A stretch of 64,000 bases of DNA, from positions 147,066,001 to 147,130,000 of the forward strand of contig NC_086097.1 of NCBI RefSeq assembly GCF_963921235.1. Reading direction: 5' to 3'. The notes beneath the pieces were generated by a model. The model saw only the letters and a list, made by a program, of their open reading frames with translations, was not told the origin of the DNA and ran no database searches. This stretch comes from Mobula hypostoma (lineage: Eukaryota). This document shows, in pieces, positions 7,963-64,000 of this stretch. Positions within the stretch are counted from its first letter, which is position 1, and the number at the start of each line of letters is the position of its first letter. The position numbers and the translations under genes were made by a program.

Positions 7963-7979
7963 CTACTGTCATTCTGGCA

Positions 7980-31529: not shown

Positions 31530-31806
31530 TGTTGGCGTTGGAAGGAAAGGATGAATTCAGAAGGTGTGATGTTTGTAGGTAGCTTCAAAAGGAAGCATTG
31601 TCTATGCATTGTCTATAGCTTTTTAAGTAGCGATTGCCTTTGTGTTTAGCATATAAATATTGAGCCCACATTGGGCTAGCAGACCTTTATGCGGAAATCG
31701 TCTCCGTCTGTAAGGTGCCTGCTATACCTTGTTGTGTCGAATAAAGAAGCTGCTTTGTATCTACCAGTGACTCTGTCTCTCTGGTGATTTCATCCATGCT
31801 ACAACA
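31530..31806 (+). mobile_element. LTR with PBS-like sequence behind it
   Basis: TGTTG...CAACA termini, internal tataaa and aataaa, followed by tttggtggcag. Confidence 0.65.
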
Positions 31807-31814
31807 TTTGGTGG

Positions 31815-34800
31815 CAGGATGAAAGTGGATAGAACTCAAGACGCTTCCTCCTGGATGCACCCTCCCATTTCACCAGGTACAGCACACCCCATCCAGGATG
31901 ATGTGAATCCATCAACCGCTGAACCATATACATTGGACCACCTTCCAGCACCCTAGGTTCCAGAGGGTCAGTCTCAGATGGGTTGGGTGGTCCATGGACA
32001 ACAGGTTTGAGGCAGGACACGTGGAAGGCAGGTGTGCTCCTGGACAGTGGCAGCTGGAGATGGTAAGTGACTGGAAGGATGCAATGGTTAATTGTAAAGG
32101 GACCAATGAAGCAGGGTGAAAGCTTGTGGGAATTAATGCGGAGGGGCAGATCTCAGGTGGACAGCTAGGCACAGTGCCCAGACTGAAATTGTCTGGCTGG
32201 GCATAGCCAGAGGCTGATATGACATTCTGTGCCCTTTTCCAAGCATTCCAACAGCAGTGAACTGGAGTCTTGGTGGATGGGACCTCCACTATTGGCTTCT
32301 CTGTGGGAACAATGGTGACTGGTAGCCATGAAGCACTTCTGAGGGTGACATATCCAGGACAGAGGAGGCAGCTCAGCCCAGAGCAGATACCTCTTCCATG
32401 TGGAAGGGTTAAAGGTGGTGACGCATCACTGAAACTTGCTGATTGGCTCTTTCTGACTGACCGTTGATCTGCATATGACAGACAGAGGACAAACTTCTGA
32501 GGTGTGGAGGAGGAAGCAGAGGCTCACCAGAAGTGGAAGCTGAATTGTGGGCTCTAGTCTGGTGCAATGTCCTAGGGGAAGCCATGAAGGCAAAGAACAT
32601 GTTGGAGAACCAAGTCTGCCATCTCAGCAGCTGACAAAAGTATGGGGGGGGGGCAATGGAGTGAGCCACCATGGAGAACTGTTCCACTATTGTTACAATG
32701 TCGATGATCCCATCGTGGGAAACCTATGACGAAATTTGTGATGATATGGGACCATAGGTGTCGAGTGACAGAGGGCCACTGCTTGGAGGAATTGGACAGG
32801 GTACATTGAGGGCGGGCAGTGGTGAACTGATGTACACCTGCGATCACGGTAAACCACCAGAACCAGTGTTGAATAAAATCCAGAGACCGCCGTGCACCTG
32901 GATGGCCAGAGAGGGGTGAGGAGAGGGCCCACTGGAGTGCCTCGTCACCAGCACGTACATGCATTTGTCAAGTGTGTCATCTGGAGCAGGCTTGTGCTGT
33001 AGGGCTGGCGAATCTGATTCTCAAGATGTCAGACCATTGGGGCAAGGATCTGAGAAAATCAGATGATAGGCTGAGGGACAATCTCTATTTCTGCTGGGTC
33101 AATCTGACATGCCAGGGTGTCCACCTTAGTGTTCTTGGAAATGGGTCAGTAGGAGATGGTGAAGTTGAATTGCTTGAGGATGTGGGCCCAGTGAGCCTAA
33201 AGTGATGAAAGGTCCTGACGAAGGGTCTCGGCCCGAAACATCGACTGTACCACTTCCTAGAGATGCTGCCTGGACTGTTGCGTTCACCAGCAACTTATAT
33301 GTGTGGAGCCTAACGTGAGTTGAGCTGGTGGGTGTATTCAATGGATATGAGATTCTGGTGGTCAGTCCAAATTAGTGTTTCCCATCATCCAATATCTTCA
33401 CTTCTCCAAGGCCCATTTAATGGTGAATAGCTTCCTGACTCCTACTCCATAATGGTACTGTATAGAATTGAAATTGTGCAACAAAAAGGCACAGAGGTGT
33501 CTCAGTCCTCACTGGGAGTGGATGGCTCTGATGCCCACATCAGGTGTGTCCACCTCTACCAGAAAAGGTCCGGAGTAGTTCAGAAGATGGAGATTCATGA
33601 AGTGTTTCATGAGCGCCTCAAAGACATAGTCTATAGTAGCAGACTAAGTTATCTTTGAGATCAGTGACTTGGTGAAGGAGATAAGAGGAGTGGTAATTTA
33701 GCTATAGTTTTTTATGAACCAGCAATAGAAGTTTGAGAAGCCCAAGAAGGGCTGTAACTGTTTAAGGGAGCGTGGTCGGGGATATTCAATGATGGCGAGC
33801 ACTTTCTCTGTGTCTATGGTTATGCCTTGGTGAAAGGACATAACCCAGGAAAGAAATGACTTTGGTATAGAACTAGCATTTTTCTAACTTGCAGTGTAGT
33901 TGGTTTTTGAAGGAACACTGAAGGATTGAACAAATGTGACAGACATAGTCTTGGGGGTCCTTGGAGAAGTTGAGGATGTCATTGAGGTAGCTGAATACAT
34001 TCCTGTGCAGCATGTCTTGGAGGATCTTGTTAATGAAGGCTTGTCAACTGATCAAATTGTTGAAAAGTCCAAAAGGCATCACTCAGTATTCATAGTGGCC
34101 AATGCGTGTTATGAGCACTGTCTTCCACACATCTTCCGGCAGAAGCAGATCAATTTAGATGCAATCTGTCGGTCCAGTTTGGTGAAGATCTGGGCACTGC
34201 AGAGTGTTTTGAATGTGTTGAGAGGGTAGTGGTTCTTAATAGTGATCTGTTTGGGTCCACGGTAGTCAATGCAAGGACAAAGACCGCCATCTTTCTTTTT
34301 GACAAAGAAGAATCCTGCACCAGCTGAGGAACGTGATGGGGAAAATGAAGCCTTGCTGTAGTGCTTCGGCGATGGGGCCATCCTTGCCTTGGGTCTCGGG
34401 AGGGGAGAGGGAGAACAGACGACTTCGGGGAGGGGTGGTGCACGAATATGGGTTAATCACAGAGTCGTGTGGTCTGTGAGATAGCAGGGCACTAGCTTCC
34501 CTCTTAATGAAGGTGATGGCAGGGTCGTGGTATTCCTGTGGGAGCTTGGTGAGTTTGAGGGTTTCCTTTGTCTCCATGGATTTATGGGGTAAAGTTAATT
34601 GAGATTACAGGCAGATGGTCTGCCAGGTAGGCCCCCAACTCAGCATTAAAACCGGATGACCAGGCAAAGTGAGGGTCATGGATGGAGAATGAGGGATAAC
34701 CCAAGATGAGGGGAGTGTTGGGTGATTCGATCAGAAGGAATTGGGTGGACTTGCAGCATTCTCCGATGCTCACATGCTTAGGCTATGTGCACACCCTGAC

Positions 34801-36040
34801 CATTCCAGACCCCAAGGGACATCTGCCAATGCCTGTAATGCAGAAGCAGTGAGAGTTAGGCTCAGAAGGATGTCCAAGCTGCACACACCGATTCTGGCCC
34901 AGAAAGTAGCCTGCTGTCCTGGAATCCACCAGAGCCCGCGGTACACACAAATCCATCAGGGAGTGGAGGAGAATAGAAAGAGTGAGTCGGACTATGGGTT
35001 CTGGAGGCTTTGCTGATGGGGGCCCTGCAGCTTGAAATGGTTTGGGAAATGGTACTGGGGTTCTGTCTGCTGATCTAGAGTGGCATTCCGTAAAACAGTT
35101 GTTAATATGGAGGGCCAGAGCAATGAAGCTTTTTGAGATTTGTGGGCATCTCCCAAATAGGGAGCTCATCTTTCAAGTGCTCCAAATATCTATAATGGTT
35201 ATAGGCCGGCAGTGCTTCCATACTCCTACTGCACTCTGCTGCAAGGGTCCTGAATCCCACAGTGTAATCCAACACTGAGCACGAGCTTTGATGGAGTCAA
35301 AGTATCTGATCCGCTGCCTCCCTTCCATGTCACAGATGGTCAAAAGCCCAGCACAAGTCAGCAGTGAAATCATCATACTGTATCTGTTGCACATGGTGAA
35401 TTGTTGTCCCAGTTAGAGGCAGTACAGATCAGACCTAGCCCAACCAACAGAGAGATGAGAAGAGCAATCTTGTCTCAGTCCGTAAAATAGAGAGATGACA
35501 GGAGCTCGAATTTCAAGACTCACTGGGACAGGACGTTGCAGCACTGGGTTGGGGATCCATCAACTTGTCCTGGTTCCAGAATTGGGGGCTCTGGCTCTGA
35601 GAGAAGAAGTTGACTGACGTGAAGTTGATGTACTGAGACAAGGAGTGCTGAGAAGACGGCCAGTCGTTTCTTGCTGCCCTCAGATTGTGTGCTCATATCA
35701 ATGGGTAAGTTCCTTTATGCCAGCAATACTCTTCTTGTTTCACCAATCCTGTCAGGAAATGTAGAGGAGGCTTGGGCCAAGGTAGAGCAATGGATACGAT
35801 TCAGTAGTGAGAGACAACTTTACTAATGAATTGCAAAGTAACAGACCATGAGGGGCCACAAAACAAGATAGAGGAGATACTTAACGTTACAATGTAACAA
35901 GGCTAGGAACCATTGGTTGAGGATGGTTAGTTCATTGGGTGAACAAGGACTGTGGATGAGAGCTGGGTTTAAATAGGCTGCAGGTAATGAGTTGGAAACA
36001 AGTGCTAGGTGGCTCTTGTTATCTGCATGAAGACTGAGAG
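31815..36040 (-). mobile_element. Chromoviral Ty3/Gypsy (sushi-like) LTR retrotransposon, degraded: partial 5' LTR, gag, PR, RT, RH, IN, chromodomain
   Basis: ALVDS protease; [30 protein letters not shown] and YLNDIL RT; SGHPG..FWW integrase; VLYLVKWEG chromodomain; LTR edge at 35750. Confidence 0.9.
33206..33305 (+). mobile_element. 100-bp Penelope pLTR insertion within the Gypsy element
   Basis: TSD gagcctaaagtga / gagcctaacgtga; contains CTGACGA-AGGGTCTCGGCCC-GAAACATC. Confidence 0.85.
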
Positions 36041-36044
36041 TCTG

Positions 36045-37395
36045 TTCCTCCGTTTCACGATGGCTGATCCATTTTTCCTCTCAGCTCCAATCGCCTGCCT
36101 ATCCCTTCATGCCCTGACCAACCAATAATCTATCAATCTCTGCCTTAAATATTCATAAAGACTTGGCCTCCACAGCTGCCTGTGGAAATGAATTCCTCAG
36201 GTTCACTACTCTCTGGCTAAAGAAACCCTCCTCACCTCTGTTCTAAAAGGACATATTCTGATGCTGTGTCCTCTGGTCTTAGAATCTCCCACCCCAGGAA
36301 ACATCCCTCTCCACACCTACTCTATCAAGGCCTTTCACCTAATAGGATTCAATTAGGTCACCCCTCATTCTTCTGAATTTCAGTGAATACAGGACAGAGC
36401 CATCAAATTCACTTCATATGACAAGCCATTTAATCCTGGAGTCATTTTCGTGAACCTCCTTTGAGCCCTCTCCAGTTTCAGCAAATCCCTCCTAAGATAA
36501 GGGGCCCAAAACTGCTCATAATACTCCAAGTGAGGCCTCATCAGTGCTTTATAAAGTCACAACATTACATTCTTGCTTTTAGATTCTAGTCCCCTTGAAA
36601 TGAATGCTAACATTGCATTTGCCTTCCTCACCACAGACTCAACCTGCAAATTAACCTTTAGGGAATCCTGCACAAGGACTCCCAAATCCCTCTGCACCTC
36701 AACTTTTTGTATTTTCTCTCCATTTAGACATTGGTCAACCCTTTCATTTCTTCTATCAAAGTGCATGAACATACAGTTCCCAACACTGTAATCCATCTGC
36801 CATTTCTTTGACCATTCTCCTAATTTACCTAAATCCTTCTGTAGATTCTCTATTTTCTCAAAACTACCTACCCCTCCACCTATCTTTTTATCATCTGCAA
36901 ACTTTGCAACAAAGCCATCAATTCCAAAAGAATCAGTCCCAACACAGACCCCTGTGGAACACCACGATCACCGGCAGCCAAGCAGAAAAGGCTCCCTCTA
37001 TTCTCATTCTTTGCCTCCTGCCAATCTGCCTCTGTTTTATCCATGTTAGAATCTATCGTGTAATACCATGGGCTTGTAGCTTGTTACACAGCCTCATGTA
37101 TGGCACCTTGTCAAAGGTCTTCTGAAAATCGAAGTATACAACATCAGCCAATTTCTTTGTCCATCCTGCTTGTTATTTCTTCAAAGAATTCTAACAGATT
37201 TGTCAGGCAAGATTTTCCCTTGAGGAAACCATTCTGATTAAGACCTATTTTATTATATGCCTCCATGTATCCTGAAACCATATCCTTAACAATCGACTCC
37301 GACATCTTCCCAACCACTGAGGTTAGGCTAACCAGCCTATAATTTCCTTTCTTCAGCCTCTCTCCATTCTTGAAGAGTGGAGTGACATTTACAAT
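36045..37395 (-). mobile_element. CR1 LINE RT/3' part
   Basis: EVQRDLGVLVQDSLKVNLQVESVVRKANAMLAFISRG; homologous to 5500-6850. Confidence 0.9.
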
Positions 37396-37895
37396 AGGGA
37401 GACAATGTTCATGGCCTCATGGACCGTTCAGAAATCTGAAGGTAGTGGGGAAGAAGTTGTTCCTAAAACATTAAGTGTGTGTCTTCAGGCTCCTGTATTT
37501 CCTCTTTGATGGTAGTAAATAAGAAGATGGTTTGTCCCACATGCTGAGAATACTTAATATGGATTCCACCTTCTAAAAGCAATGCCTTTTCAAGATATTT
37601 TTGATGGTGGAGAGAGTTGTGCCTGTGATGGAGCTTTTCAAGATATTTTGTCAACAGCCCTCTGCAGCCTCTTTGAATCATGTGGATTGCAGCATATATA
37701 CCAAGCAGTGATACAAACAGTCAGAATTCTCTCCAAGGTACATGTGTAGAAATTTTCTAGAGTGCTTGGTGGCATACCAAATTTCCTCAAACTCCTGATA
37801 AAGTACAGCTGCGGCGTGCCTTTTTTTGTGATTGCGTCAACATGATAGAGCTAGGATAGATCTTCTTGATGTGTTGACGCCAAAGGCCTTGAAAG
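37396..37895 (-). mobile_element. Rex1/Babar LINE 3' fragment
   Basis: Reverse-complement homology to 15850-16260 and 26262-26560. Confidence 0.7.
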
Positions 37896-44208: not shown

Positions 44209-44346
44209 GAGTCCTGTTGAAGAGTCTCGGCCTGAAACATCCACTGCACTCTTTTCCATAGATGCTACCTGGCCTGCTGAGCTCCTCCAGCATTTTGTGT
44301 GTGCTGCTCGGAGTTCCAGCATCAGCGGATTTTCTCCTGCTTGTGA
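44209..44346 (+). mobile_element. Penelope pLTR fragment with mutated hammerhead core
   Basis: gtcctgttgaagagtctcggcctgaaacatcc..gatgctacctggcctgctgagctcctccagc. Confidence 0.75.
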
Positions 44347-46042: not shown

Positions 46043-48409
46043 CTAGATTCCATGGATTATATTTATGTACTGCAGATGGCCTCTGGAATAAGTCGCTATA
46101 TTATATGTGTTTTGGTTACGCACAGTGGAAAATATGATTCAGATATTTTTCTGCTGAACCACATAGGTGAGGATTCTGTTACATGTTCTCACTCAAAGTA
46201 AGTGTGGACTGGAATGTTGGGACTTGATGATCAATGACTAGAATCACAACAATTCTAATTTTCCCGTTATTATCAGTAATCCTTCTCAAAGTTTAAAAAA
46301 AGAGGAGAGGCTGATTTATGGATAAACTCTAGAGCAGAGGTTTCTCCAGCAATTAAACCATAAATCCATTTTCTGTTTCAACCAGCATAATGTGTGAAAG
46401 ATAGGTTCTATTGCTCTGAAAATTAAGAACAAAGATGGCTCAAGCAACAATGGAAGAAAAGAGAGTAAAAAGTCCAACTTTGAATTTTGGCAATTGTGTA
46501 ATATAAATCGTTCTAGATTGATTACTCTTCATCAACTCTTCCAAATTTTCAAGATTCAAGATTCAACTACATTTATTATCAAAGAATTATGCCACCTTGA
46601 GGTTTTCTGATGTCCATTTAAAGCAATTTCCCTGAGCCTAAAACAATCTCTTTTTTTGCCTAATGTGTTCAGATCATTGAGATTCAGAGTACATTGGACA
46701 TCTGGGGATATCTACAAGGCAATGAGGAAAAACATGCCTATTTTATAAACACCATTAGTGTCTCTCACTGAGATGGCAATCTAGAAATACCCGAAGCAGT
46801 TTCTCTGCATGTACTGCAGAGATCAAGCAGGACTGGGATATTTTGTTTCCTTGTTTTTCTTTCATACTGAGTTATGATAACACAAATGTTGGTTGCTTGA
46901 CAGCAGCCTGTTCAGGATTGGTTATAATTTATGTTTTAAAATGTGCATACAAGCCACTTATCTTTCTGATAGTCCCATCCTGAGCACTTATGAGACAATG
47001 AACTACTGTTAAAAATCTTGGCTGATGTTTTAGTTCAATGGTAGCCTCAGGGTTTGATTCAAGAACAGTCTATAGACTGGAGTAGACCATTCAGGGTCTG
47101 CTTAATTTGAGAACTTGGCATTGTTTCATTTCAGAATCAAAGTAAAATGGAGGCTGGAAGAGAAAATCCAATATTTGCTGATGCTGGATGTCCAAAATAA
47201 AAACATGAAATACTATACTGGAAACACCCATCTGTTGAAGTCGAAATAATTAACATTTTGGGTCCATACACCTTCATCAGAAGTGGGAAATAGAGGATAA
47301 CAAGTGAGTTTTCAATTAGAGAGAAGATAAAGGAGTTGTGGGTAGAACAAAGTGCAGCTGCTTATTGTTAACAAAAACTGCTCATAGAAGTGACAGGGGA
47401 TCTTAGCCAATATTTGCTCATAAAACAACATTACTAGCACAAAATTACCACACTGCTGTGGAAAACAATGGTGTATCTTTAAGATCATGTCACCGACTTT
47501 TAAATGCTGATGGTATTGTTGTGGTAGAAGGAACAATGGAAATACACACTTTCATTTTCATTCCAGGATTTCATTACATCATCTCAATGATCATTCTAGA
47601 GCAATTCTAAAGGGATACTCTACTGTTTAGGAGATTGTACTATTGATGAAATGTTAGCCTAATGCACTAGCTGATGAAGAAACCTTAATTGATGACCATT
47701 ATTAAGTTCTCATGGACAGCATAATTTTCCAAATCTAGAACAGGCTATAAAGTAAAAGCAGAAAATGGTGGAAATACTTAATGGATCAGGTAGGAAGAGA
47801 AAGTGTTACTATAAATTAATAAAAAGCAGATGTCAGAAAGATGAAATACAAACAGAAAGTTTGGAACCACTCTGCAAGTTAGACAGTATCCATGGAAAGA
47901 GAAAGAAAAAAATATTTTAGATCAAAGAATTCAGTGTCTGAACAATAAAGTATAGGAAACAAGTTTGCTTTAAGTTTTAGAGAATGTAGAGATGGGATGG
48001 ATAAGGAAACAGAAAACTTAAGATAGGCTGATGACGAGGCTGCTGTAAGGATAGCCTGTGAACTATGTCATCTGGTTGATTGGTTTATGAGGGAATTTAG
48101 AAAGGGGTAGAATACAAACAAAAGTATATACCATCTGTGAACTGCAAAGGAATTGGAGAAGCCCAGCAGGTCATGAATTCACAGCAAGGAGAGGATGAGT
48201 AAACTTATGTGGAAGTGGACAGGTGTGATACAAACAGATATAATGAGCCACTGAAGCTATTGAATTCCATTTTGTATTTGGAAGGTTACAACTGCCGAGA
48301 TGGAATATAAAGTGATTAAGCTTACATTGGGCTTCATTATGAAACTGCAGGACGACACCAATAACTAGTGCACAATGGAAGTGGGATAAAGAATTGAAAT
48401 GGCGGACAA

Positions 48410-51400
48410 CATAGAACATAGTATAGTACAGCACAGTACTGGCCCTTCGGCCCACATTGTTGTGCTGACCCTCAAACCCTGTCTCCCATATAACCCCCCA
48501 CCTTAAATTCCTCCATATACTTGTCTAGTAGTCTCTTAAATTTCACTAGTGTATCTGCCTCCACCACTGACTCAGGCAGTGTATTCCACACACCAACCAC
48601 TCCCTGAGTAAAAAACCTTCCTCTAATATCCCCCTTGAACTTCCCACCCCTTACCTTAAAGCCATGTCCCCTTGTATTGAGTAGTGGTGCCCTGGGGAAG
48701 AAGTGCTTGCTATCCACTCTATCTATTCCTCTTAATATCTTGTATACCTCTATCATGTCTCCTCTCATCCTCCTTCTCTCCAGAGAGTAAAGCCCTAGCT
48801 CCCTTAATCTCTGATCTTAATCCATACTCTCAAAACCAGGCAGCATCCTGGTAAATCTCCTCTGTACCCTTTCCAATGCTTCCACATCCTTCCTATAGTG
48901 AGGCGACCAGAACTGGACACAGTACTCCAAGTGTGGCCTAACCAGAGTTTTATAGAGCTGCATCATTACATTGCGACTCTTAAACTCTATCCCTCAACTT
49001 ATGAAAGCTAACATCCCATAAGCTTTCTTAACTACCCTATCTACCTGTGAGGCAACTTTCAGGGATCAGTGGACATGTACCTCCAGGTCCCTCTGCTCCT
49101 CCACACTACCAAGTATCCTGCCATTTACTTTGTACTCTGCCTTGGAGTTTGTCCTTCCAAAGTGTACCACCCACACTTCCCCAGGTTAAACTCCATCTGC
49201 CACTTCTCAGCCCACTTCTGCAACCTATCAATGTCTCTCTGCAATCTTTGACAATCCTCTACACTACTTACAACACCACCAACCTCTGTGTCGTCTGCAA
49301 ACTTGCCAACCCACCCCTCTGCCCCCACATCCAGGTCGCTAATAAAAATCACGAAAAGTAGAGGTCCCAGAACCGATCCTTGTGGGACACCACTAGTCAC
49401 AACCCTCCAATCCGAATGTACTCCCTCCACCACGACCCTCTGCCTTCTGCAGGCAAGCCAATTCTGAATCCACCTGGCCAAACATCCCTGGATCCCATGC
49501 CTTCTGACTTTCTGAATAAGCCTACTGTGTAGAACCTTGTCAAATGCCTTACTAAAATCCATATAGATCATATCCACTGCACTACCCTCATCTATATACC
49601 TGGTCACCTCCTCAAAGAACTCTATCAGGCTTGTCAGACACGATCTGCCCTTCACAAGACCATGCTAGCCAGAGGCTCAGCAATCTCTTCGCTCACCTTG
49701 TGGATCAGCCCAGGGACTTATCTGTCCTAATGTATTTTAATAACTCCAACACCTCCTCTCCCTTAATATCAACATGCTCCAGAACACCAACCTCACTCAT
49801 ATTGTCCTCGCCATCATCAAGTTCCCTCTCATTGGTGAATACTGAAGAGAAGTATTCATTGAGGACCTCGCTCACTTCCACAGCCTCCAGGCACATCTTC
49901 CCACCTTTATCTCTAATTGGTCCTACCTTCACTCCTGTCATCCTTTTGTTCTTCACATAATTGAAGAATGCCTTGGGGTTTTCCTTTGCCCTAATCACCA
50001 AGGCCTTCTCATGACCCCTTCTTGCTCTTCTCAGCCCCTTCTTAACTTCCTTTGTTGCTTCCCTATATTCCTCAATAGACCCATCTGATCCTTGCTTCCT
50101 AAACCTCATGTATGCTGCCTTCTTCCACTTGACTAGATTCTCCACCTCATTTGTCACCCATGGTTCCTTCACCCTACCATTCTTTATCTTTCTCACGGGG
50201 ACAAATTTATCCCTAACATCCCGCAAGAGATCTCCAAACATCGACCACATGCCCATAGTACATTTCCCTGCAAAAACATCATCCCAATTCACACCCACAA
50301 GTTCTAGCCGTATAGCCTCATAATTTGCCTTTCCCCAATTAAAAATTTTCCTGTCCTCTTTGATTCTATCCTTTTCCATGATAATTATAAAGGCCAGGGT
50401 GTGGTGGTCACTGTCCCCCAGATGCTCACCCACTGAGAGATCTGTGACCTGACCCGGTTCATTACCTAGCACTAGATCTAGTATGGCATTCCCCCTGGTC
50501 AGCCAGTCCACATACTGTGACAAGAATCCGTCCTGGACACACTTAACAAACTCTGCCCCATCCAAACCCTTGGAACTAATCAGGTGCCAATCAATATTAG
50601 GGAAGTTAAAGTCACCCATGATAACAATCCTGTTATTTTTGTACCTTTTCAAAATCTGACACCCAATCTGCTCCTTGGTATCTCTGCTGCTACCAGGGGG
50701 CCTATAGAATACTCCCAATAGAGTAACTTCTCCCTTCCTGTTCCTGATTTCCACCCATACTGACTCAAAAGATGATCCTGCTACATTACCCATCCTTTCT
50801 GTAGCTGTAATGGTATCCCTGACCAGAAATGCCACCCCTCCTCCCCTTCCCCCCCCCCCATCCCTTTTAAAGTACTGAAATCCAGGAATATTGAGAATCC
50901 ATTCCTGCCCTGGTGCCAGCCAAGTCCTTGTAATGGCCACTACATCATAATTCCATGTACATATCCAAGCTCTCAGTTCATCACCTTTGTTCCTGATGCT
51001 TCTTGCATTGAAGTACACGCACTCTAGCCCTTCTACCTTCCTACCTTTATCCCCTTTATTCTGCTTCTCTTTCCTCAAAGCCTCTCTATATGTTAGATCT
51101 GGCTTTACTCCATGCACTTCTTGCACTGCTCTATTGCTCCAGATCCCATCCCCCTCGTAAATTAGTTTAAACTCTCCCGAACCATGCTAGCAAACCTACC
51201 TGCAAGGATATTGCTCCCCCTTGAGTTCAGGTGCAACCCATCCAAGCTGTACAGGTCCCACCTTCCCCAGAAGAGATCCCAATTATCCAAAAATCAAAAC
51301 CCTGCCCGCTGCACCAACTCCTCAGCCACGCATTCAACTGCCATCTCCTCCAACTCTTACCATCACTATCAAGTAGCATTGGCAGCAATCCTGAGAACGT

Positions 51401-51580
51401 CACCCTTAACGTCCTGTTCTTCAGCCTTCTGCCTAGTTCCTGACACTCACACTTCAGGACCTCATCCCTCTTCCTGCCTATGTCGTTGGTGCCAACATGT
51501 GTCACGACTTCTGGTTGCTTTCCCTCTCATACCAGGATGTCGTGCATCCGGTCAGAGACATCCCGGACCCTGGCACCCTG
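48410..51580 (-). mobile_element. Relatively young CR1 LINE: ORF1 esterase C-terminus, ORF2 with internal deletion, 3' tail
   Basis: HVGTNDIGRKRDEVL (ORF1); 473-aa open EN region FNARSI..MGDFNFP..DSDH; SGVPQGSVLGP..KFADDT RT. Confidence 0.95.
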
Positions 51581-51609
51581 GCAAGAAGCTTGGAGACGTC
51601 TGAATTATT

Positions 51610-52895
51610 GAGTCATGGCTGACAGAAGATAGTAGTTGGGAACTTAACATCCAAGCATACACGTTGCATTGAAAGCAGAGGCAGGTAGGCAGAGGGAGTG
51701 GGTGGCACTGTTGTTAAAAATGAAATCAAATCCTTAGAAAGAAGTAACATAGGATCAGAAGATGCAGAATCCTTCTGGGTATTGTAAAGATACCGCAAGG
51801 ATAAAAGGACCATGATGGGAGTTATAGACAGGCCTCTGAACAGTAGCCAGGATGCAGGGTACAGGGAGTGGTAGTAGTTGGTTGTCTCTCCTCCTGGAGG
51901 CCTGTGACTAGTGGCGTGCCACAGGAATCAGTGCTGGGTCGATTGCTGTTTATCATTTACATCAACAATCTGGAAGGTAATGTAGCAAACTGGATCTGCC
52001 TATTTGCCGATGACACCAAGGCTGGGGTGTAGTAAACAGCAAGAAAGGCTATCAAAGCTTGCAGTGGGATCTGGACATTCTGGAAAAGTGGGCTAAGGAA
52101 TGGGAAAGGGAATTTAATGCAGAAAAATGTCAGTTGCACTTTGGGAGGACAAAGCATGGTAGGACCTATATAATGAGTAGTAGGGCACTGAGGAATGCAA
52201 TAGAACAGAAAGACCTAGGAATATGGATGCATAATTCCTTGAAAGTTGCGTCACAGGTACATAGGGTCATAATGACAGCTTTTGGCACATTGTCCATAAA
52301 TGAAGGTACTAAGTATAGGAGTTGGGATGTTATATTGAAGTTCTATAATAAGTTAGTGAGACCTAAATTGGAGTATTGTGTCCAGTTCTGGTCACCTACC
52401 CACAGGAAAGTTATCAGTAAGATTGAAAGTGTGTAGAGAAAATTTACAAGGATGTTGCTAGGACTTGAGACCTGATTTTTTAGGACTGGTTGAATTGGTT
52501 TGTACCTTTGTTCACCAGAGAATAGGAGAAAGAGGAGACATTTGACGGACGACTACAAATTTATGAGGGGCTTAGACAGGGTAAATGCAAGCAGATCTTT
52601 TCCACTGAGGTTGGGTGTGACTAAAACTAGAGGTCCCAGATTAAGAGTAAAAGGTGAAATGTTTAAGGTGAACGTGAGTGAGAGTGAGAGTGTGGAATAA
52701 GGTGCCAATGGAGGTAATGCATGTGGGTTTGCTTTCAATGTTTGAGAGAAATTTGGATAGAATATATAGATGGGAGGGATATGGAGGGCTATGGTCTGGA
52801 TGCAGGTCAATGGGAATAGGCAGACTAATAGTTCAGCACAGACTAGATGGGCCAAAAGGCCTGTTTCTCTGTTATAGTATTCTATAACTCCATGG
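51610..52895 (+). mobile_element. CR1 fragments (EN piece joined to RT/3' end)
   Basis: tatttgccgatgacaccaag (FADDTK); LVRPKLEYCVQFWSP; ctataactccatggct tail. Confidence 0.85.
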
Positions 52896-53340: not shown

Positions 53341-56134
53341 ATAACCACAAATATGTAGCATTCTGAACTGAAGTCCGCAAAGAGAGTCCCATAGTTCAGC
53401 CCAGAGCCAAGTAAGCACTGTGGAGCAGCAATTATTATGCTTTACAAATTGCAACCTTTCATTCTTAGCTATTGCAGTAATTACATTATTACTGATCACC
53501 TTTATGGCTAAGGATCAAAGTATGCCACCTGAAATATGGAAGGCAATAGATAGATGGACTACTGACCTCACAATTGACCTCATTATGGCCTTACACCTTA
53601 TTATCTACCTGCAATGCACTTCCTTTGTAACTGTAACACTTTATTCTGCATTCTATTATTGTCTAACCTTGAACTATCTCAATGCTCTGTTGTAATGATA
53701 TGATCTGTATGATGGCATGCAAGGTAAAGTTTTATTTCTATGCCACAGTACATGTTATAGTACTTCACCAATTTATAATTTACAAGTTAGTATAATGGGT
53801 AGGGGTAACTCACTGAAGGGTCCTCTAAGGCAGGTTCAATGGCTCAGTCAATTCCCAATGTCCGAAGGTCAGATGTAGGCTGAGGTTGCACAATACAGTA
53901 TCTACAACATCGTTATACTGCTCCCTGCTCTATGCAGTGCATCACCATCGCTCACCTAGCAATAATAGTTATCAATCAGGATTCCCACCAAGTATTAAAA
54001 TGTCCCTTCTTAAATTTATTCGTTGCTCATCCCTCATTGCCCATTAGAAGGACTGCAGTTAAGTTGCATTCTTAAGCCATTGCATTCCTTCTAGTAATGC
54101 TGTGGTAATCCCTTCTGGTAATTCCACAATGCTGTGACAGTAGAATTTAGGGGCAGCAATGAGAAACAATATAGTTCACAATCAGAATGGTGTGTGTCCT
54201 GGAAAGAGCTTGCAAGTGGTTGCATAACCATATACCTGGTACCTCTTCCATATTTGTTAGGGAAATTTCTGGTTTGGGAGGTGATGTTGTAGCAGCTTCA
54301 AAAGTAATTGGCCATGCTTTCTGGATATAAATAAGAACAAGATAATGAGGGGAGGAGAGTTGGAGAACACCAAAGGGAAGGTGTGTACTAGGGTGGAAGC
54401 AGGAGAGTTTGAATGATGTAACTGGTGATGGAGTTCATTGAAGGAGGACGGCAAAGGCTGGTGAATGACAGAGGATATATTCCCAGATTGAGATTCTAAA
54501 TTGAAGAAAGGCCAACTTTGATGGTTTTAGAAAGGGTCTGTCAAGCGTGGATTGGGACAGGTTGTTTTCTGACAAACATGTACATGGTAAATGGGGGGCC
54601 TTCAAACGTGAAATTTTGAGACAACAGTGTTTGTACATTCCTGGCAGAACAAAAGGAAAGCATAACAGGTTTAGGGAACCTTGGTAAACTACTGAGGCCC
54701 TGGTTAAGAAAAACGAGAAGGTGTATAGCAGGTATAGGCAGGCAAAAGCAAAAAAGGTACTTGAAGAATATAAGAAATGCAAGAGAACACTTAAGAAAGA
54801 AATAAGGAGGGCTAAAATAAGGCATGAGATTAAAGTAAGGCATAAAAGGCATAAGGCTAAAATAAGGCATAAGGCATGAGGCATATATCTTCTATGTTAG
54901 ACACTTGCTTTACCACTGATGAGATTAAGAATATTATTTTTTCTATGAACCTGGGGAAAGCTCCTGGTCCTGATGGGTTTACCATGGAATTTTATAAATT
55001 TTTTGCATCTTCATTAATCCCTTGGTTATTCAGGGTTCTGGAGGCCTCATTAAAACTTGGTAAACTTCCTGAATACTTTTATACAGCAACGATCTATTTA
55101 ATATTAAAGAAGGATAAAGATCCTGCTCAATGTGCATCTTATAGACCAATATCCTTATTAAATGTTGACTCTAAAATTTTTTCTAAATTATTATCAAACA
55201 GATTAGAAAAAGCACTTCCTTATATTATTTCGGAAGACCAAACGGGTTTTATTAAAGGTCGTTACTCTTTTTATAATATTCGTACACTGTTAAACATTGT
55301 CTATACCCCGTCACAAAATGATCCTGAATGCGTCATTTCCTTAGACGCTGAAAAGGCCTTCAACAGAGTCGAATGGCCTTACTTATTTAAGGTGCTTGAA
55401 ATGTTTAATTTCAGCCTGAAATTTATATCCTGGATCAAATTGTTATATCATTCTCCTATGGCCTCAGTCTGTACTAACTCTTTAAACTCACCTTTTTTCC
55501 TCTTTTTCAAGGTACCAGACAAAGTTGTCCTCTCAGTCCTTTATTATTTGATATTGCATTAGAACCTCTTGCAATTGCTATTCGAGAATCTCCAAATATT
55601 ATTGGTATAACTCGTGGTTTAAAGTCTCATAAAGTATCACTTTATGCTGATGACTTACTTTTATGTATTTCTAATCCTCAAAAATCTATTCCTGCTGCTT
55701 TAGATTTATTAGCACAATTTAGTCTTTTTTCAGGTTATAAGTTAAATCTCAATAAGAGTGAACTTTTCCTGATTAATAAGCAAGTTCCCTTATATCAGAA
55801 TCTCCCGTTTAAATTGGTTAATAACCATTTTTCATATCTAGGGATTAAAATTACCTGTAAACATAAGGATTTATTTAAGACTAATTTCCTACCCTTAATT
55901 GATCACATTACTCAACTTTCATTTAAATGGTCTCCACTTTATTTAATTTTGATTGGTCGTGTTACTGCTGTTAAGATGTTTATTCTGCCAAAATTTTTAT
56001 ATGTATTTCAGGCACTACCGTTTTTTGTTCCAAAATACTTTTTTGACAAAGTTGACCATAAAATTTCTTCAACCAACATACATCAAAGTTGCTGGTGAAC
56101 ACAGCAGGCCAAGCAGCATCTATAGGAAGAGGCG

Positions 56135-56172
56135 CAGTCGACGTTTCAGGCCGAGACCCTTCGTCAGGACTA
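56135..56172 (-). ncRNA. Minimal type I hammerhead ribozyme motif (inverted copy)
   Basis: Exact reverse complement of 56233-56270. Confidence 0.8.
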
Positions 56173-56232
56173 ACTGAAGGAAGAGTGAGTAAGGGATTTG
56201 AAAGCTGGAGGGGGACTCACTCTTCCTTCAGT

Positions 56233-56270
56233 TAGTCCTGACGAAGGGTCTCGGCCTGAAACGTCGACTG
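56233..56270 (+). ncRNA. Minimal type I hammerhead ribozyme motif
   Basis: Stem I tagtc/gactg; core CTGACGA; stem II AGG/CCT; GAAAC-GTC cleavage triplet. Confidence 0.8.
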
Positions 56271-59006
56271 TGCCTCTTCCTATAGATGCTGCTTGGCCTG
56301 CTGCGTTCACCAGCAACTTTGATGTATGTTGCTTGAATTTCCAGCATCTGCAGAATTCCTGTTGTTTGCGTATAAAATTTCTTCATTTATTTGGCAAAAT
56401 AAAAACCCGAGATTGGGTAGAATACATCTACAGAAAGCTAAGAGAGATGGAGGTTTGGCATTACCTAACTTTAGATTCTATTATTGGGCAATTAATATTC
56501 GACACATGAAATTTTGGTTACTTGACAAGATACATTATCCATTCCTAAATGGGTAGTATTGGAATTACAATCTGCTCAAGGTTATGCACTTGGCTCCATT
56601 TTAGGTTCTTCTCTTCCTTTCGATTTGAAACGCCACAAACAGGTTTGTAACTCAATAGTTAAATATACCTTACGTGTTTGGTTTCAATTCCGAAAATTTT
56701 TCAATCTTAATCAATTTGGGCTTGCGATTCCTATTTTAGGCAACATATTCTTTCCCCACTCTTCCATGGACCGTGCCTTTCAAATTTTGAAGACTAATGG
56801 TATATTACGGTTTTTGGATTTATCTTTAGATGGCTCCCTTATGTCTTTTGAACAATTATCTAACAAATATAACTTACCAAGAATACATTTTTTTAGATAC
56901 CTCCAAATTAGAAATTTCCTAAGTACTATATTCTCTTCCTTTCTGACGTTACCTCCTACATATATTTTAGATACTATAATTAACCTTAACCCATGTCAGA
57001 AAGGTGTAACAGCTATTATTTATAATACTATCCTGAAACTTAGGAAAGCTCCATTCGATAAGATTAGGTCAGATTGGGAAAAGGAATTGGGTCTTATTAT
57101 TCCGGTGGATGACTGGGCGCATATTTTACAACTAGTCAATACTTCCTCTATCTGTTCCAAATATTCCCTAATTCAATTTAAAGTTGTTCATAGAGCGCAT
57201 ATGTCTAAAGATAAATTAGCTCGTTTTTATTCTCATATTAACCCTCTTTGTGACAGATGTCATGGGGAGATAGCTTCCTTAACTCATATGTTTTGGTCCT
57301 GTCCTACTTTGGAAACTTCTTGGAAAGATATTTTTAATATTATTTCAAAGGTATTGGATATAGATATTTCTCCCCATCCTATTACTGCTATCTTTGGATT
57401 ACCTAAAATTTACAGTAATCTTTCCCCCTCAGCCCGTAGAAAGATTGCATTTCTTACTTTAACGGCGAAAAGACGTATTTTACAACATTGGAAGGAGATT
57501 AATGCCCCAACTATGTTCTTTTGGTTTTCTCAGATGATACTATGTTTAAATTTGGAGAAAATCAGAAGTAATCTTTATGATCCTTCAGTTAAATTTGAAC
57601 AGACCTGGGGATCTTTTATTTAACATTTTCATTTAATGTAATTTTTTTTTCTCTTTGCCCATATTTACATTCCCTTCTTGCTTTTTAACTGTTTTTAATG
57701 GAGGTCGGGTTTGAGCATGTGATTGTTTTAAGTTGTTTAAGTCTACTTGATACCTAGTTAGCCCATTGCTTTGCTTTGCTTTTTAGATTAGTTGCACGGT
57801 GGGTTTTTTCTTCTGTTTATTGATATGTATGGAAAATTAGTATACCATTATATTACCCTGTTATTGTATATCTAAACTGCACTGTTTGTACTAATTTTTT
57901 TTGGTTATTAATATCGCTTGTAAATTTATATTGCAACAGTGTATTAGTGTCTACATGGTTTACCTTTTGTGTACTAATTCAATAAAAAGATTTAAAAAGA
58001 GATTACTCTAGCAGACAAGGGGAAGGAGAATCCTAAGGGCTTCTACAGGTATATTAAGAGCAAAAGGATAGCAAGAGATAAAACTGGTCCTCTGGAAGAT
58101 CAGAGTGGTAATCTATGTGTGGAGCCAAAAGAGATGGGGGAGATCTTAAATAGATTTTTTGCATCTGTATTTACGAGGGAGAGAGACACAGACCTATACC
58201 TGTGAGGCAATGCAGCCACAATGTTATGGACCCTATGCAGCTTACAGAGGAGGACGTGTTTGCTGTCTTGAGGCAAATTAGGGTGATTAAATCCCCAAGA
58301 CACTGACAGTGTGTTCTCGCGGACCCTATGGAAGGCTAGAGCAGAATTTACAGGGGCCCGAGCAGAGATATGTTAAACATCCTTAGCCATGAATCAGTTG
58401 CCAAAGGATTGCAGGATAGCTAGTGTTGTTCTGTTGTTTAAAAAAGGCTCCAACAGTAAGCCAAGAAATTATAGGTCAGTGAGCCTGACATCAGTAGTAG
58501 GAAGATTATTGGAAGGTGTTCTAACAGACTGGATATATGAGTGTTTGGATAGACAGACTGGTTAGGGATAGTCAACCTGGCTGTGTACGTGGTAAGACAT
58601 ACCCCATTGATTCTTGAGAATTTAGATAAAACAGGTTTTAATTTTGAAAAGAAAAATTTTTAAAGGTTAAGAAATCTAAACATATGTTTAGGTGCAACCT
58701 CCTGATTTTGTAATTTTTTTCAGAAAATACATGCTTTTCCTGTCATTACTTAGTTTTTGTCAACACAGTCAGACACAATAAAGAACTAATTTTTCCTATT
58801 TATTTAGTCTTAAATAGATTTAGAGCTTTTAAATAATTGTGTCTACACCATAGGTACACATATATGCTGTTAAATGTTGAATAATCACTTTCTTTCATTT
58901 TTTATATTATTTCACATGTACTCCTTTAAAAACATGCAACTTTTATCATTAGCATTAAATATACAAAATAACAATTTTGGACATAAAAACATTTTTAATT
59001 TTAAAG

Positions 59007-60251: not shown

Positions 60252-62795
60252 TCAGTCAGCTTTATCAGGAAGTAGATGATTAATATGCTCCTCCTCTGTG
60301 AAGTCCATGACCTCAGCAGACAGGTGGTAGGTCTCCCTCGTCCTGCTTGCATGATCTGGTGATGATGGCTCCATCAGTCTGACCAGAATATCTTCAACTG
60401 GTACAAAGCACATATTCTTTCCACCTGGTTTTGGATGGAAGCGTGTGTTGGGCCCATAACGATGGAAAAACTCCACTTGAACATCTTGATGATGAGCATC
60501 CACAGTGACAGCCTTTGCTAACCATCAATTTTGGTCATAAATGACTGCAAGCCAATCTCCACAATTAATGACACCAGCAGATATATCTGTCGTAGTCCTG
60601 TCAGGACCACTCTGAGGTTCCTGCTCCATTTCCTTCATCGGCATTGCCAAAGGCCCTCTGTTCTTTCCCATTTTGGTAGAGCCATCATTCTCCTCAGCCT
60701 GTACCCTGGCATGTGTATTTTTAGTCAACTGAAATGTTGTTGGGTTGAAACACTGACACATCTGTGGCTCACTGCAGAAACATGACAATGATTTGCAATG
60801 GATGCTGTTTTCATAAGGTATGACCTGATGGATTTTCCTCGTGCTGGTACAGGTTTTAGTGGTTGAGAAAGGAGTGCATCATATGTTTGCATGTCACCTT
60901 CAGCAATATGATAGAGCTGAGTACTGCTTCTCCCAACCATCTCATGGAAGATCTTGCTGTCCACAATGTCATTCCCCTGTAGTACAAGGCTGTCTGCAGT
61001 CCTTTTCACAGTTCCCCCAATGCCATCTGGAGTTCCCTTCCCATGAGAAGCGGCGAAGAAGTTCCAGGTTGTTTTCTGGAAACCCAGTGTTGGAGGGACA
61101 TTGCAGAGGAGATAGAAGTTCTTCTTGTTTTTGTACTGCTTGCTGGGGCCATCTGACCAAAATTGAATGGTATCAACTTCTGGAAATTTTAAACGAATAT
61201 TTCAGAGGACTGGTTTCATGTGAGTCCAAATGGCAGAAGCATCCTGTCGCTTGGATTCTGATATTGTACAGAATCCTGCTTTCTCTTCTTTTGTGTAGTA
61301 CATGCCAGTGTGCAGATTGAGTTGTGGGAGGTTCTAACCAAAAATGGCATGACTGTACCTCAGAACTATATTTGCATTTCCATGCCTCAGAAAAGTCCAC
61401 ATGCACAATTACAGTGCTTTCATTGCAGTTCTGTATCATGCTCCTGTATTCCCTGGACTAGTCCTGAACCAAGCACACGTGTTGTTGTTTTAATCTTTAG
61501 TTTGTCTTCATACAGTTTGATCAGCTCTGCCAGTGTGCCATTGTGCTTCACAAGTCTTGTGTTGTAGTGAATTCCATCTGCTGTTTGGTCCTGAACTCAT
61601 TCCCATTGCTGCCACTCAACATCGGTCAACTCTTCGCTGTGGGGTGAGAAGTGTGTGCTGGTGGAGACACCAGGTGCAGGAGCGCAGAAGACATGCCTTG
61701 CTTGTCTGAGAACAATATACAAGTTCAAAACTATCCTCCAATTTGCTAGACTTGACAATACCATATGTTCTTAGGACCTCAAACATCAGCTCTGCATTTT
61801 CATGGCATTGGCATGTCTTTCAATCTGATGGTTTTGGTGCTGTGACATAGCACAGAAGGATGAATAACTGAGTTTTACGGTTGGTTCCTTTTTGATGAAC
61901 TCCCTGTGGAGGTTGAATATTGTGCCAGTCAGAATCATTCTCTAATGCTTTATTTTCTTCCGTGTTATCGTGTCCTGTTTGCCAGTCATCATTCGTGCAG
62001 CATTATGGTAGAAATCCTGAACCATCTGGGTTATTGTTTGAATATAAGTGGATTTTTTGTCAGTAGTCCTTCTCTTTCACAGTGTGTTGTATGTCAGCCC
62101 GAACTGCTTTGTCTGGTGTATTAGGCGATATTTCTTTAGAACCCTGCCTGACAGAGTCAAATTCTTTGATTTTTGAGCAGACTTGAGCAGAATTATTTTT
62201 GTTTTGATTAAATTCTTGAATGAGACAGTTGTGGAAGAGCAGAGTTTTCTTGATCGAGGGGTTTTTGAGTTTGCTTCCCCGTAGTATCTGCTCTGTTTTT
62301 TTTTCTTGTTGATTCTTGCGTTTTTATATTGCTAGTTTGCTCTCATCACCAACGCTTTTTCAGTTTGTTCCTATCTTTTATTATCTCTTGAAGTTTATTT
62401 TTCAAAGCTTTCATCTCTCTCAGGTATCTCGCTCTTATTTTCTTTCTTTCCCTTTCCCCTGCTATAGACTGCCTACTGTGAGCTGGCTCCTGTATAGTCT
62501 GATCCAATGGACTATCTGGGGGAGTTTCTGGGCATTCTGGGTCCTTTCTCTTACGCTGTCTTGACTCTTGCTGTCTATGTTTCCATGCCTTTCTCTTACT
62601 CCTCTTTTCCCTTTCATTCAAATCACTGATAGTTTTTATCTTCCCATCCTCTACTCTCTTCTTCCATCTTTGCTTTTCCTTTCTCAAGTATTCCTCCTTT
62701 AACTCTGGCTCTCTATATACTTTCTCTCTCTGCTTTTTTTGGTAATCTCTGTTTCTTCTCCTTTGCTCCTCCACTGATAGCTGCTGCCTAACCAT
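60252..62795 (-). pseudogene. Frameshifted transposase gene of the Sola2-like element
   Basis: Charged N-terminus MVRQQLSVEEQRRRNR.., three acidic motifs, C-terminal CFC..CQC and GDWLAVIYD, spread across several frames. Confidence 0.8.
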
Positions 62796-64000
62796 AACTT
62801 CCTAAAATACGTAAAAGGAAGGTCAGAATTTAATGGAATTATTATGAAATTGTGCAAAATTACTATGAATTTAATTACATTTAATTTGGTGAAATTTTAT
62901 AAAATGATTATGAAATGGTGCAACTAAATTCATTTATGTTTTTAGTCATTGGTGATACATATAATAAGGAAATATTGTAGGCCTGTGTGTGGAAGAAATA
63001 AAGGGGAAATTATGTATATTATAAATAAAGAGGTTAATGAAACATTACAAGCCCTATTACTATTTAGTTTGATCATGAATTATATTCAGGCCTCCATTGA
63101 GGATGATTTGGATGTTTTGTCAACACTATCAAACTATGTGTCACCACCATCAGACAGAAAACCTAACAGTTTTAATGTCTGACAGTGGTGACAAGAACAC
63201 ACTTTTTTACATGACATGCATGAGTTGTATACAGGAGCCATCTTGTTTTCCCTCTGTTGCTAGCTGCCTCTGGCCTCTACTTAAAATGCATAAATTTATA
63301 TCATATTGTAAAATAATTCTTTTTATACAAAAGAGACAGTGTTGACACATCATGGTTGTGACAGTAGCAACATCAATAAATATGTAAAAATTATTGAAAA
63401 AATAGAAAACTTACAGGAGTTTGTTTGACCTTGTTGCATTTAGCAGATGTGGAGGGTGGAAAGGGGGTCCTCAGGAATATAGTTGACCATGTGGTTGCCT
63501 GATTTTATTGCTTTTTTTATAAACATCTGACGGTGTTGACAAAAACTTGGGACACATTTTGAGCAACCACAAAATAAAAGTAAATATTGTTGAAAATTCA
63601 CTGCTTTTAGTTTTAATAGGTGTTTCACTCTACTCTTTCATCTAGCATATATATTATACATTTTAAATTATTTTTTCACACTTTTTTATCAAATTGAAAT
63701 GATAATCTCTTGTCTGAGGACAACTGACTTTGTGGGTACTGGGCTATCATATAATCATATAATTTATAAAATTAAAAACAAGCATATGAAAAAATGTTGC
63801 ATTTATGCAAAAGACCCTCAGATGATCAACCCTGATTATTTTAAATCAGAAAAAATATTATTTATTTTCAACGGACTTAGCACTTTTTTTAGTGGGACAT
63901 GTTTACAGCGACGACTCAAGAATCCATGACTTAACCGGACTTATAATGTTTCTTGATGAAGTTATTATGAAAGTTGATGAAGGCAGGGCAGTAGATATTT

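What the first reader, a model, noticed from the sequence alone, without database searches (positions are those of the whole stretch)
56058..56385. Near-perfect 117-bp hairpin carrying a hammerhead ribozyme motif on each strand
Seen: a 300-bp insert with a 14-bp TSD, arms differing at only two CpG-type positions, and a 24-nt loop. Each arm has stem I (tagtc/gactg), CTGACGA, stem II (AGG/CCT) and GAAAC-GTC with a palindromic ACGT in place of stem III. Established: Penelope-like elements carry minimal hammerheads thought to cleave as dimers, and often insert as inverted pLTRs. Inference: a transcript from either strand would contain one ribozyme plus its antisense, so long dsRNA would compete with ribozyme folding. 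If identical 300-bp units recur, this is a MITE-like non-coding ribozyme retroelement.
Basis: partly seen in the sequence, partly recalled or inferred. Interest (0 to 1): 0.75.

Follow-up and report, generated by a model that had tools for sequence, protein, structure and literature searches.

The report
Ordinary head-to-head Penelope retroelement stub
This 300-base hairpin is a real insertion of two back-to-back copies of the end of a very abundant, likely Penelope-like jumping gene, each carrying a small self-cutting RNA motif that is predicted to be locked up by the hairpin, and it is likely a one-off leftover of a pattern already described rather than a new mobile element.

Summary
Observation confirmed: exact 14-bp TSD, 117-bp arms with two CpG-type mismatches, 24-nt loop, one minimal type I hammerhead motif per strand, inserted into an old LINE. 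New details: only the right end has a 38-nt tail; the loop is the family's ordinary upstream sequence read backwards; both arms share the same minority subfamily alleles. This is the known Penelope-like 'inverted 5'-truncated copy + one-sided tail + TSD' insertion (PMC3846280, PMC8557442); hammerhead pairs on opposite strands 100-700 bp apart are described in PMC4209133. In run contigs the arm is about 1,000-10,600 times deeper than the loop and other inversion joints lie elsewhere. So a high-copy MITE-like unit is not supported, but strict uniqueness of this junction was not shown. On both strands the antisense arm is transcribed first and pairs the motif with probability above 0.99, so cleavage is unlikely. 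Most likely made once, by priming at both nicked strands from the element's two 3' ends. The scan noted similar hairpins before in this and other genomes (unchecked AI notes).

The parts
56058..56071 (+). Left copy of the 14-bp target-site duplication (12 of 14 A/T); its last 4 nt are complementary to the first 4 nt of the element's tail (microhomology at the left junction)
56072..56190 (-). Left arm: inverted, tail-less copy of the pLTR 3' end; starts at the mirror of 56333
56135..56172 (-). Minimal type I hammerhead motif on the minus strand (stem I to stem I; core starts at 56167)
   Evidence: motif scan; mirror of 56233-56270
56191..56214 (-). 24-nt loop: ordinary upstream family sequence belonging to the left (inverted) copy; no pairing across the loop end in 6 of 6 positions checked
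   Evidence: table 7 (loose ends before 56215 resemble the reverse complement of the loop)
56215..56333 (+). Right arm: sense copy of the pLTR 3' end, 5'-truncated at the inversion junction
56233..56270 (+). Minimal type I hammerhead motif: stem I 56233-37/56266-70, core 56238-44, extra A 56245, stem II 56246-49/56254-57, GAAAC 56258-62, GTC 56263-65; palindromic ACGT in place of stem III; predicted cut after 56265
   Evidence: features listed in PMC4209133
56334..56371 (+). 38-nt one-sided 'tail' (34 nt if the 4-nt microhomology is counted to the arm)
   Evidence: family ends near 56367-56371 and at 56333 table 7
56372..56385 (+). Right copy of the target-site duplication
54873..57623 (+). 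Host element: broken LINE (L1-like by my reading) RT open reading frame into which the unit inserted; RVT_1 before the site, zf-RVT after it

Best explanation
It is a 300-bp insertion with a 14-bp target duplication, made of two head-to-head copies of the hammerhead-bearing 3' end of a very high-copy repeat that is likely a Penelope-like retroelement, likely laid down in one event and likely never re-mobilised as a unit, with both ribozyme motifs predicted to be inactive inside the hairpin. Shown: boundaries, arms, one-sided tail, loop polarity, shared subfamily alleles, family abundance and two family 3' ends. Inferred mechanism (about 55% within this reading): the element's GIY-YIG endonuclease nicked both strands of an AT-rich site 14 nt apart. 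The bottom-strand end primed cDNA at the distal start site (56371) and the top-strand end primed cDNA at the proximal start site (56333), helped by 4 nt of complementarity. The two cDNAs stopped after about 157 and 143 nt and were joined end to end and filled in, giving inverted arms, a tail on one side only and a loop made of the extra 24 nt of the longer-reaching copy. Since then the arms have picked up two CpG transitions. A read-through transcript of either strand would meet the antisense arm first and would fold into a ~120-bp duplex, so the single motif per strand, which also needs a partner copy, would not fold.
For: Anatomy. Architecture matches published PLE insertions: inverted pLTR, 9-10 bp TSD, optional 31-bp tail on one inverted copy, head-to-head most frequent (PMC3846280 passages); inverted 5'-truncated copy plus 30-40 bp tail at one end (PMC8557442 passages); dual min-HHRs 100-700 bp apart on opposite strands related to truncated PLEs (PMC4209133). 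A purified PLE protein nicks and extends both strands of AT-rich DNA and starts RT at two sites whose spacing is the tail (PMC11167929); arm bins 8.4-14.5 million summed depth against 2,447 in the loop bin in X1; mean ratios 4,733, 995, 10,595 and 2,992 in the four runs. Loose ends before 56215 (166, 67 and 14 contigs in X1, X5, X13) resemble the reversed loop. Long, low-agreement, A/T-rich loose ends lie behind 56367-56371, and behind 56333 in X9 (6 contigs), exactly where the left arm begins. 2 of the 15 joints shown change strand, at 56220/56284 and 56242/56275, one contig per run. Both arms carry G56272, T56293 and A56326, which are minority alleles (family majority differs in 67-99.9% of depth), so one source made both. 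Of 4 older window copies of the family, 2 have tail-like sequence and 2 stop near the tail-less end. An older related copy at 21535-22099 runs directly from a GIY-YIG-type C-terminal fragment into pLTR sequence 75% identical over 81 nt to the right arm and tail; the matching protein P0001 clusters with RVT_1/GIY-YIG proteins. Arm-arm pairing probability over the motif is at least 0.997 on both strands, antisense first.
Against: The junction was not shown to be single-copy. The loop bin's depth (2,447 in X1) is far above the 8-19 of single-contig joints, though it may be mostly opposite-strand matches from ordinary copies; the tool warns that depth is no copy number, and 128,766 pieces were not shown. 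No ORF was linked to this exact young subfamily: the link is through older relatives at about 75% identity, and GIY-YIG and RVT_1 scores are below Pfam gathering cut-offs. Rfam did not recognise the motif. The in vitro work is on a lizard Poseidon element and found no homology between RT start and target, whereas this site shows a 4-nt match. The published explanation for head-to-head PLE repeats is self-priming on an antisense template, which fits the loop polarity equally well.
Confidence: 0.85

Rival explanations
1. Same one-off PLE insertion, but the inversion arose by self-priming or fold-back on an antisense template (RNA or free cDNA), and the left end was then trimmed of its tail at integration; or a longer palindrome lost its centre after insertion. 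This is a rival for the mechanism step only, within the best explanation.
For: Proposed for head-to-head PLE repeats in PMC3846280. The plus strand reads antisense arm, antisense loop, then sense arm and tail, the order this model predicts.
Against: No complementarity across the loop end (0 of 6 positions pair), unlike the junction palindromes described in that paper. The left arm begins exactly at a 3' end that the family also uses on its own (56333), which priming from a second start site explains directly. Simple fold-back of a tail-primed cDNA would put the extra loop bases on the other strand.
Confidence: 0.35
2. The 300-bp hairpin is a self-propagating, non-autonomous, MITE-like unit that the PLE machinery copies whole.
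For: The loop bin's summed depth is not at single-contig level (2,447 in X1; 5,855 in X5), so up to the order of a hundred copies is not excluded. One other strand-change joint (56220/56284) appears in both organism A and organism B. pLTR sequences can mobilise cargo in trans.
Against: The loop holds 0.01-0.10% of arm depth; at most 20, 10, 3 and 3 contigs run over either end of the stretch; contigs leaving the arm go into ordinary upstream sequence; other inversion joints are at other positions. The joint shared by A and B is as easily one old orthologous insertion. RT would have to copy through a duplex of about -250 kcal/mol.
Confidence: 0.05
3. The hairpin has been kept for a host function (small-RNA source, dsRNA editing substrate or ribozyme switch).
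For: Near-perfect 117-bp duplex; the family is abundant in a run guessed to be RNA.
Against: It sits inside a broken LINE in a repeat-dense window. The arms are similar because the insertion is young and from one source, and both differences are CpG-type. Nothing here shows that this locus is transcribed.
Confidence: 0.05
4. Assembly or read artefact (fold-back chimera).
For: Inverted repeats cause assembly problems for PLEs (PMC8557442 passage); no contig spanning the locus was shown.
Against: Exact 14-bp TSD, open host frame when the insert is removed, asymmetric tail, and three differences between the arms. The TSD's first base is A in both copies while uninterrupted paralogous LINE copies read C there (table 7, X5 7 contigs, X9 1 contig), so the duplication was made from this locus.
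Confidence: 0.03

Closest known systems
Inverted-pLTR insertions of endonuclease-bearing Penelope-like elements with one-sided tail and TSD (Arkhipova et al. 2013, PMC3846280; Craig et al. 2021, PMC8557442)
   Same: Head-to-head inverted 5'-truncated copy, 30-40 bp tail at one end only, short TSD, AT-rich target, insertion into another retroelement.
   Different: Extreme truncation: no ORF and no direct pLTR, both copies under 160 nt; 24-nt unpaired loop rather than a junction palindrome; TSD 14 bp rather than 8-10 bp.
[quoted passage not shown]
   Same: [quoted passage not shown]
   Different: Stem II is 4 bp rather than the 7-8 bp of Schistosoma motifs; this copy has G-U at 10.1-11.1, where 23-33% of family depth has the usual G-C.
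Poseidon element of Anolis carolinensis, in vitro (Frangieh et al. 2024, PMC11167929)
   Same: Two 3' ends separated by a tail; AT-rich target; both-strand nicking and extension would produce this layout.
   Different: Different element; that study found no homology between RT start and target, and its ribozyme cleaved only with the protein present and was not needed for insertion.
Non-LTR retrozymes of animals (bioRxiv 10.64898/2026.07.22.740005; PMC7229834 seen in listing only)
   Same: Non-coding, PLE-derived, about 300 nt, type I hammerhead.
   Different: Retrozymes are defined by head-to-tail tandem units on one strand; here the two motifs are head-to-head on opposite strands and cannot dimerise in one transcript.
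MITEs (PMC8969392 passage)
   Same: Short, non-coding, inverted repeats, TSD.
   Different: MITEs are deletion derivatives of DNA transposons with terminal inverted repeats at both ends and many near-identical copies; here one end carries an unpaired tail, the sequence is retroelement-derived and recurrence is not supported.

Membership tests
EN+ Penelope-like element insertion | Repeat family linked to an ORF with RT followed by C-terminal GIY-YIG endonuclease | tested here: met
   Met through older relatives only: tblastn of P0001/P0003/P0004 hits 2521-3742 and 21932-22099; the 21.5-22.1 kb copy runs into sequence 75% identical over 81 nt to the right arm and tail; P0001 neighbours carry RVT_1 and GIY-YIG; Pfam scores below gathering. 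No ORF was tied to this exact subfamily.
EN+ Penelope-like element insertion | Inverted 5'-truncated copy adjoining at the 5' end (head-to-head) | tested here: met
   loop polarity.
EN+ Penelope-like element insertion | 30-40 bp tail at one end only; two family 3' ends | tested here: met
   38 nt; loose ends behind 56367-71 and 56333 (24 of 728 rows shown); 2 of 4 older window copies tailed.
EN+ Penelope-like element insertion | Short TSD at an AT-rich site, no poly(A) tail | tested here: met
   14 bp, 12 of 14 A/T; the insert ends without poly(A).
EN+ Penelope-like element insertion | Clade placement (Poseidon, Neptune, Nematis) by RT phylogeny | not tested
   No reference PLE proteins were fetched; no tree built.
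Minimal type I hammerhead (min-HHR) | Core CUGANGA and GAAA with UH cleavage triplet, stems I and II | tested here: met
   Rfam models did not detect it.
Minimal type I hammerhead (min-HHR) | Extra nucleotide between 9 and 10.1 and palindromic 15.2-16.2 | tested here: met
Minimal type I hammerhead (min-HHR) | G10.1-C11.1 closing pair | tested here: not met
   G-U in both arms of this copy; C is present in 23-33% of family depth among contigs at least 90% alike.
Minimal type I hammerhead (min-HHR) | Self-cleavage as a dimer | not testable with these tools
   Computed dimer ribozyme fold -12.7 kcal/mol against -31.7 for the best alternative dimer fold; needs a bench assay.
Non-LTR retrozyme | At least two consecutive tandem units, each with a complete hammerhead on the same strand | tested here: not met
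   One motif per strand; definition.
MITE-like self-propagating unit | Many copies with the same internal junction and different TSDs | tested here: inconclusive
   High copy number not supported (loop 0.01-0.10% of arm depth); low copy number not excluded; no genome held.
MITE-like self-propagating unit | Terminal inverted repeats at both ends | tested here: not met
   The right end carries a 38-nt tail with no partner.

The most novel reading that the evidence does not exclude
This exact fold-back unit (same loop junction) has been re-copied whole to tens or a few hundred loci by the PLE enzyme, making it a hairpin-shaped non-autonomous retroelement whose ribozyme is held shut by its own antisense arm. 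A milder and likelier novelty (about 0.5, interest about 0.35): young insertions like this one record in vivo that a PLE primes cDNA at both nicks from its two start sites, which would explain why the tail sits on one inverted arm only.
Probability: 0.05. Interest if true: 0.6.

Novelty: new member of a known kind. Interest (0 to 1): 0.14.

Why it matters
As a single locus it matters little: it is one scrap of a huge repeat family. As a class, such young TSD-bounded stubs could settle how Penelope-like elements make head-to-head repeats and one-sided tails (priming at both nicks versus self-priming), which the papers read call undefined; that needs a genome-wide junction census, not this one copy. 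If transcribed, they would be a source of long dsRNA rather than of active ribozymes.

Tried and rejected
No own genome is held, so copies could not be counted directly. Rfam found nothing at gathering score; the E-value scan gave 12 sub-threshold matches, mostly miRNA hairpin models fitting the stem, all rejected as generic. Pattern scans for the core found 0 loci in viral contigs and 0 in two scans of metagenome contigs, which says only that those collections lack this DNA. No RNA holder was listed on record; runs guessed to be RNA show nothing about this locus. Only 4 of 24 listed runs were laid, on 450 bases without the left arm; no listed piece spans the stretch and the tables were cut (40 of 49 difference rows, 15 of 28 joints, 12 of 79 spacer rows, 24 of 728 loose ends, 32 of 128,798 pieces), so presence or absence of this locus in organisms A, B and C stays open. 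PDB sequence search with P0001: 0 matches to E 1. Scan look-ups by sequence and by relatives: nothing. L1-type twin priming was rejected because the two segments here overlap fully, whereas in L1 they do not (recalled), and there is no poly(A). Fold-back of a tail-primed cDNA alone was rejected because the loop has the wrong polarity. Literature: 0 of the 14 papers listed contain 'MITE-like' beside the other terms, and one search found 0 papers with Penelope, Neptune, shark and GIY-YIG together; these are narrow searches of an open-access library, and repeat databases could not be searched.
Full report
Observation. A 14-bp direct repeat at 56058-56071 and 56372-56385 encloses exactly 300 bp. 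Arms 56074-56190 and 56215-56331 pair with two mismatches, both C-to-T type in a CG context. Pairing continues to 56068/56337 with one more mismatch, and its outer 4 nt overlap the left TSD. The RNA fold is -254.8 kcal/mol, z -26, 0 of 100 shuffles as stable; no other exact inverted repeat above 12 bp with a spacer up to 60 nt exists in the window. The unit interrupts a broken LINE RT frame (RVT_1 upstream, zf-RVT downstream), and taking out the insert with one TSD copy gives an open frame across the site. Protein hits to other repeats in the window come from Hypanus and Mobula, so the window is likely from a ray.

The right end has 38 nt (56334-56371) with no partner on the left. The loop is not foreign: contigs that leave the arm at 56215 continue with sequence resembling the reverse complement of the loop (166, 67 and 14 contigs in X1, X5, X13). 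So the left copy is an inverted, tail-less piece of 143 nt (56072-56214) and the right copy a sense piece of 157 nt with tail (56215-56371). Both arms share three alleles that are the minority among contigs at least 90% alike (family majority differs in 73-86% of depth in X1 and 86-99.9% in X5 and X13), so they were made from one source of a subfamily enriched in organism A.

The ribozyme motif. Each strand carries a minimal type I hammerhead with the cut predicted after 56265. Rfam does not detect it. It fits the published min-HHR features: short stem I, an extra base between 9 and 10.1, palindromic 15.2-16.2 (PMC4209133, parts 1-2 of 4 read). This copy then has G-U where G10.1-C11.1 is usual. 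That paper found no cleavage by a single motif and low cleavage by dimers; a review repeats this (PMC6765202 passages; the Lunse et al. paper was seen only as a reference). Because the junction is head-to-head, the antisense arm is transcribed first on either strand, and arm-arm pairing over the motif has probability at least 0.997. The motif is therefore predicted to be silent at this locus. No cleavage was tested.

Link to Penelope-like elements. Older relatives in the window tie this repeat to an RT plus GIY-YIG ORF. P0001, P0003 and P0004 align to 2521-3742 and 21932-22099, and the minus-strand copy at 21.5-22.1 kb runs from the endonuclease end into sequence 75% identical over 81 nt to the right arm and tail. 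P0001's nearest Atlas clusters carry RVT_1, HTH_animal and GIY-YIG. Pfam scores for GIY-YIG and RVT_1 on these decayed proteins are below gathering, and no ORF was tied to the young subfamily itself, so the assignment is likely rather than proven.

Does the unit recur? No genome is held. I laid Logan contigs of 4 of 24 listed runs (organisms A, B, C) on 56191-56640. Mean arm depth exceeds the loop bin by 4,733, 995, 10,595 and 2,992 times, and only 20, 10, 3 and 3 contigs run over either end of the stretch. Of 15 joints shown (28 in all), 2 change strand, at 56220/56284 (X1 and X5) and 56242/56275 (X9), each one contig of depth 10-14. The family's 3' ends show as long, unrelated, A/T-rich loose ends behind 56367-56371 and, in X9, behind 56333, the mirror of the left arm's first base. 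Against my reading: the loop bin (2,447 in X1) is well above single-contig depth (8-19); it may be filled by ordinary copies matching the loop on the other strand, but that was not shown, the tool warns that depth is no copy number, and most rows were cut. A high-copy MITE-like family is not supported; a low-copy one is not excluded.

How it most likely formed. Purified PLE protein nicks and extends both strands of AT-rich DNA and starts reverse transcription at two sites that bound the tail (PMC11167929, parts 1-2 of 4 read). Applied here (inference): nicks 14 nt apart; the bottom strand primed at the distal start, the top strand at the proximal start with 4 nt of complementarity; both cDNAs stopped early and were joined. 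This accounts for the TSD, the head-to-head arms, the one-sided tail and the loop polarity. The published alternative, self-priming on an antisense template (PMC3846280 passages), fits the polarity too but expects complementarity at the turn, and none is seen (0 of 6 positions). I put these at about 55 and 35%. Either way the product is a dead, one-off stub.

Comparison and novelty. An inverted 5'-truncated copy with a one-sided 30-40 bp tail is described as typical of PLE insertions (PMC8557442 passages; PMC8969392 passages; PMC3846280), and opposite-strand min-HHR pairs 100-700 bp apart were reported in 2014. It fails the tandem definition of non-LTR retrozymes (bioRxiv 10.64898/2026.07.22.740005, part 1 of 5 and passages) and lacks the two-ended TIRs of a MITE. 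The scan's own notes list similar hairpins of 172-298 bases in this and other genomes (87 notes fit the look-up, 8 shown); they are unchecked AI notes, were seen after I had stated my reading, and are not counted as evidence. Verdict: real, a new member of a known kind, interest 0.14.

Noticed in passing
tables 5 and 5c, places 56262-56271 back to 56223-56235: Several contigs in X1 and X5 go back from just after stem I 3' to just before stem I 5', i.e. tandem repeats of about 35-45 nt made of the hammerhead core alone (summed depth up to 146-181 in X1). Such head-to-tail cores could form the active dimer in one transcript, like a very small retrozyme.
   Followed up: no
table 5, joint 56330 to 56373 (X1, one contig, depth 10): A tail-less sense arm runs straight into sequence like the LINE at this same site: either an independent insertion at the same spot of a paralogous LINE or an allele lacking the tail.
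   Followed up: no
table 5, joint 56220/56284: Another strand-change joint of the family is present in one contig each of organisms A and B, possibly an older inverted insertion shared by two species.
   Followed up: no
window 33212-33305 (+), 44210-44343 (+), 4803-4903 (+), 21535-21613 (-): Four older solo copies of the same pLTR end (74-88% identity); only the 33212 copy keeps the core motif intact in the scan; two have tail-like sequence.
   Followed up: partly
window 2521-3770 and 4617-4903 (+); 21535-22099 (-): Decayed Penelope-like ORF fragments (RT thumb region, GIY-YIG-type end) followed by the C-rich 3' region; the first is split by about 850 bp of other sequence.
   Followed up: partly
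window 60725-61201 and 62346-62801 (-): ORF fragments that look like a decayed DNA-transposon-type gene by my reading; nearest Atlas clusters are eukaryotic hypothetical proteins, 11-20% of whose members carry DUF7869; no Pfam hit of note.
   Followed up: partly
window 5800-8100, 16500-18100, 36000-37400, 48400-52700, 58000-58600: Many decayed copies of CR1/L2-type LINEs (my reading; endonuclease domain at 49705-51186 by Pfam); 31800-35200 looks like LTR-retroelement remains by eye.
   Followed up: no
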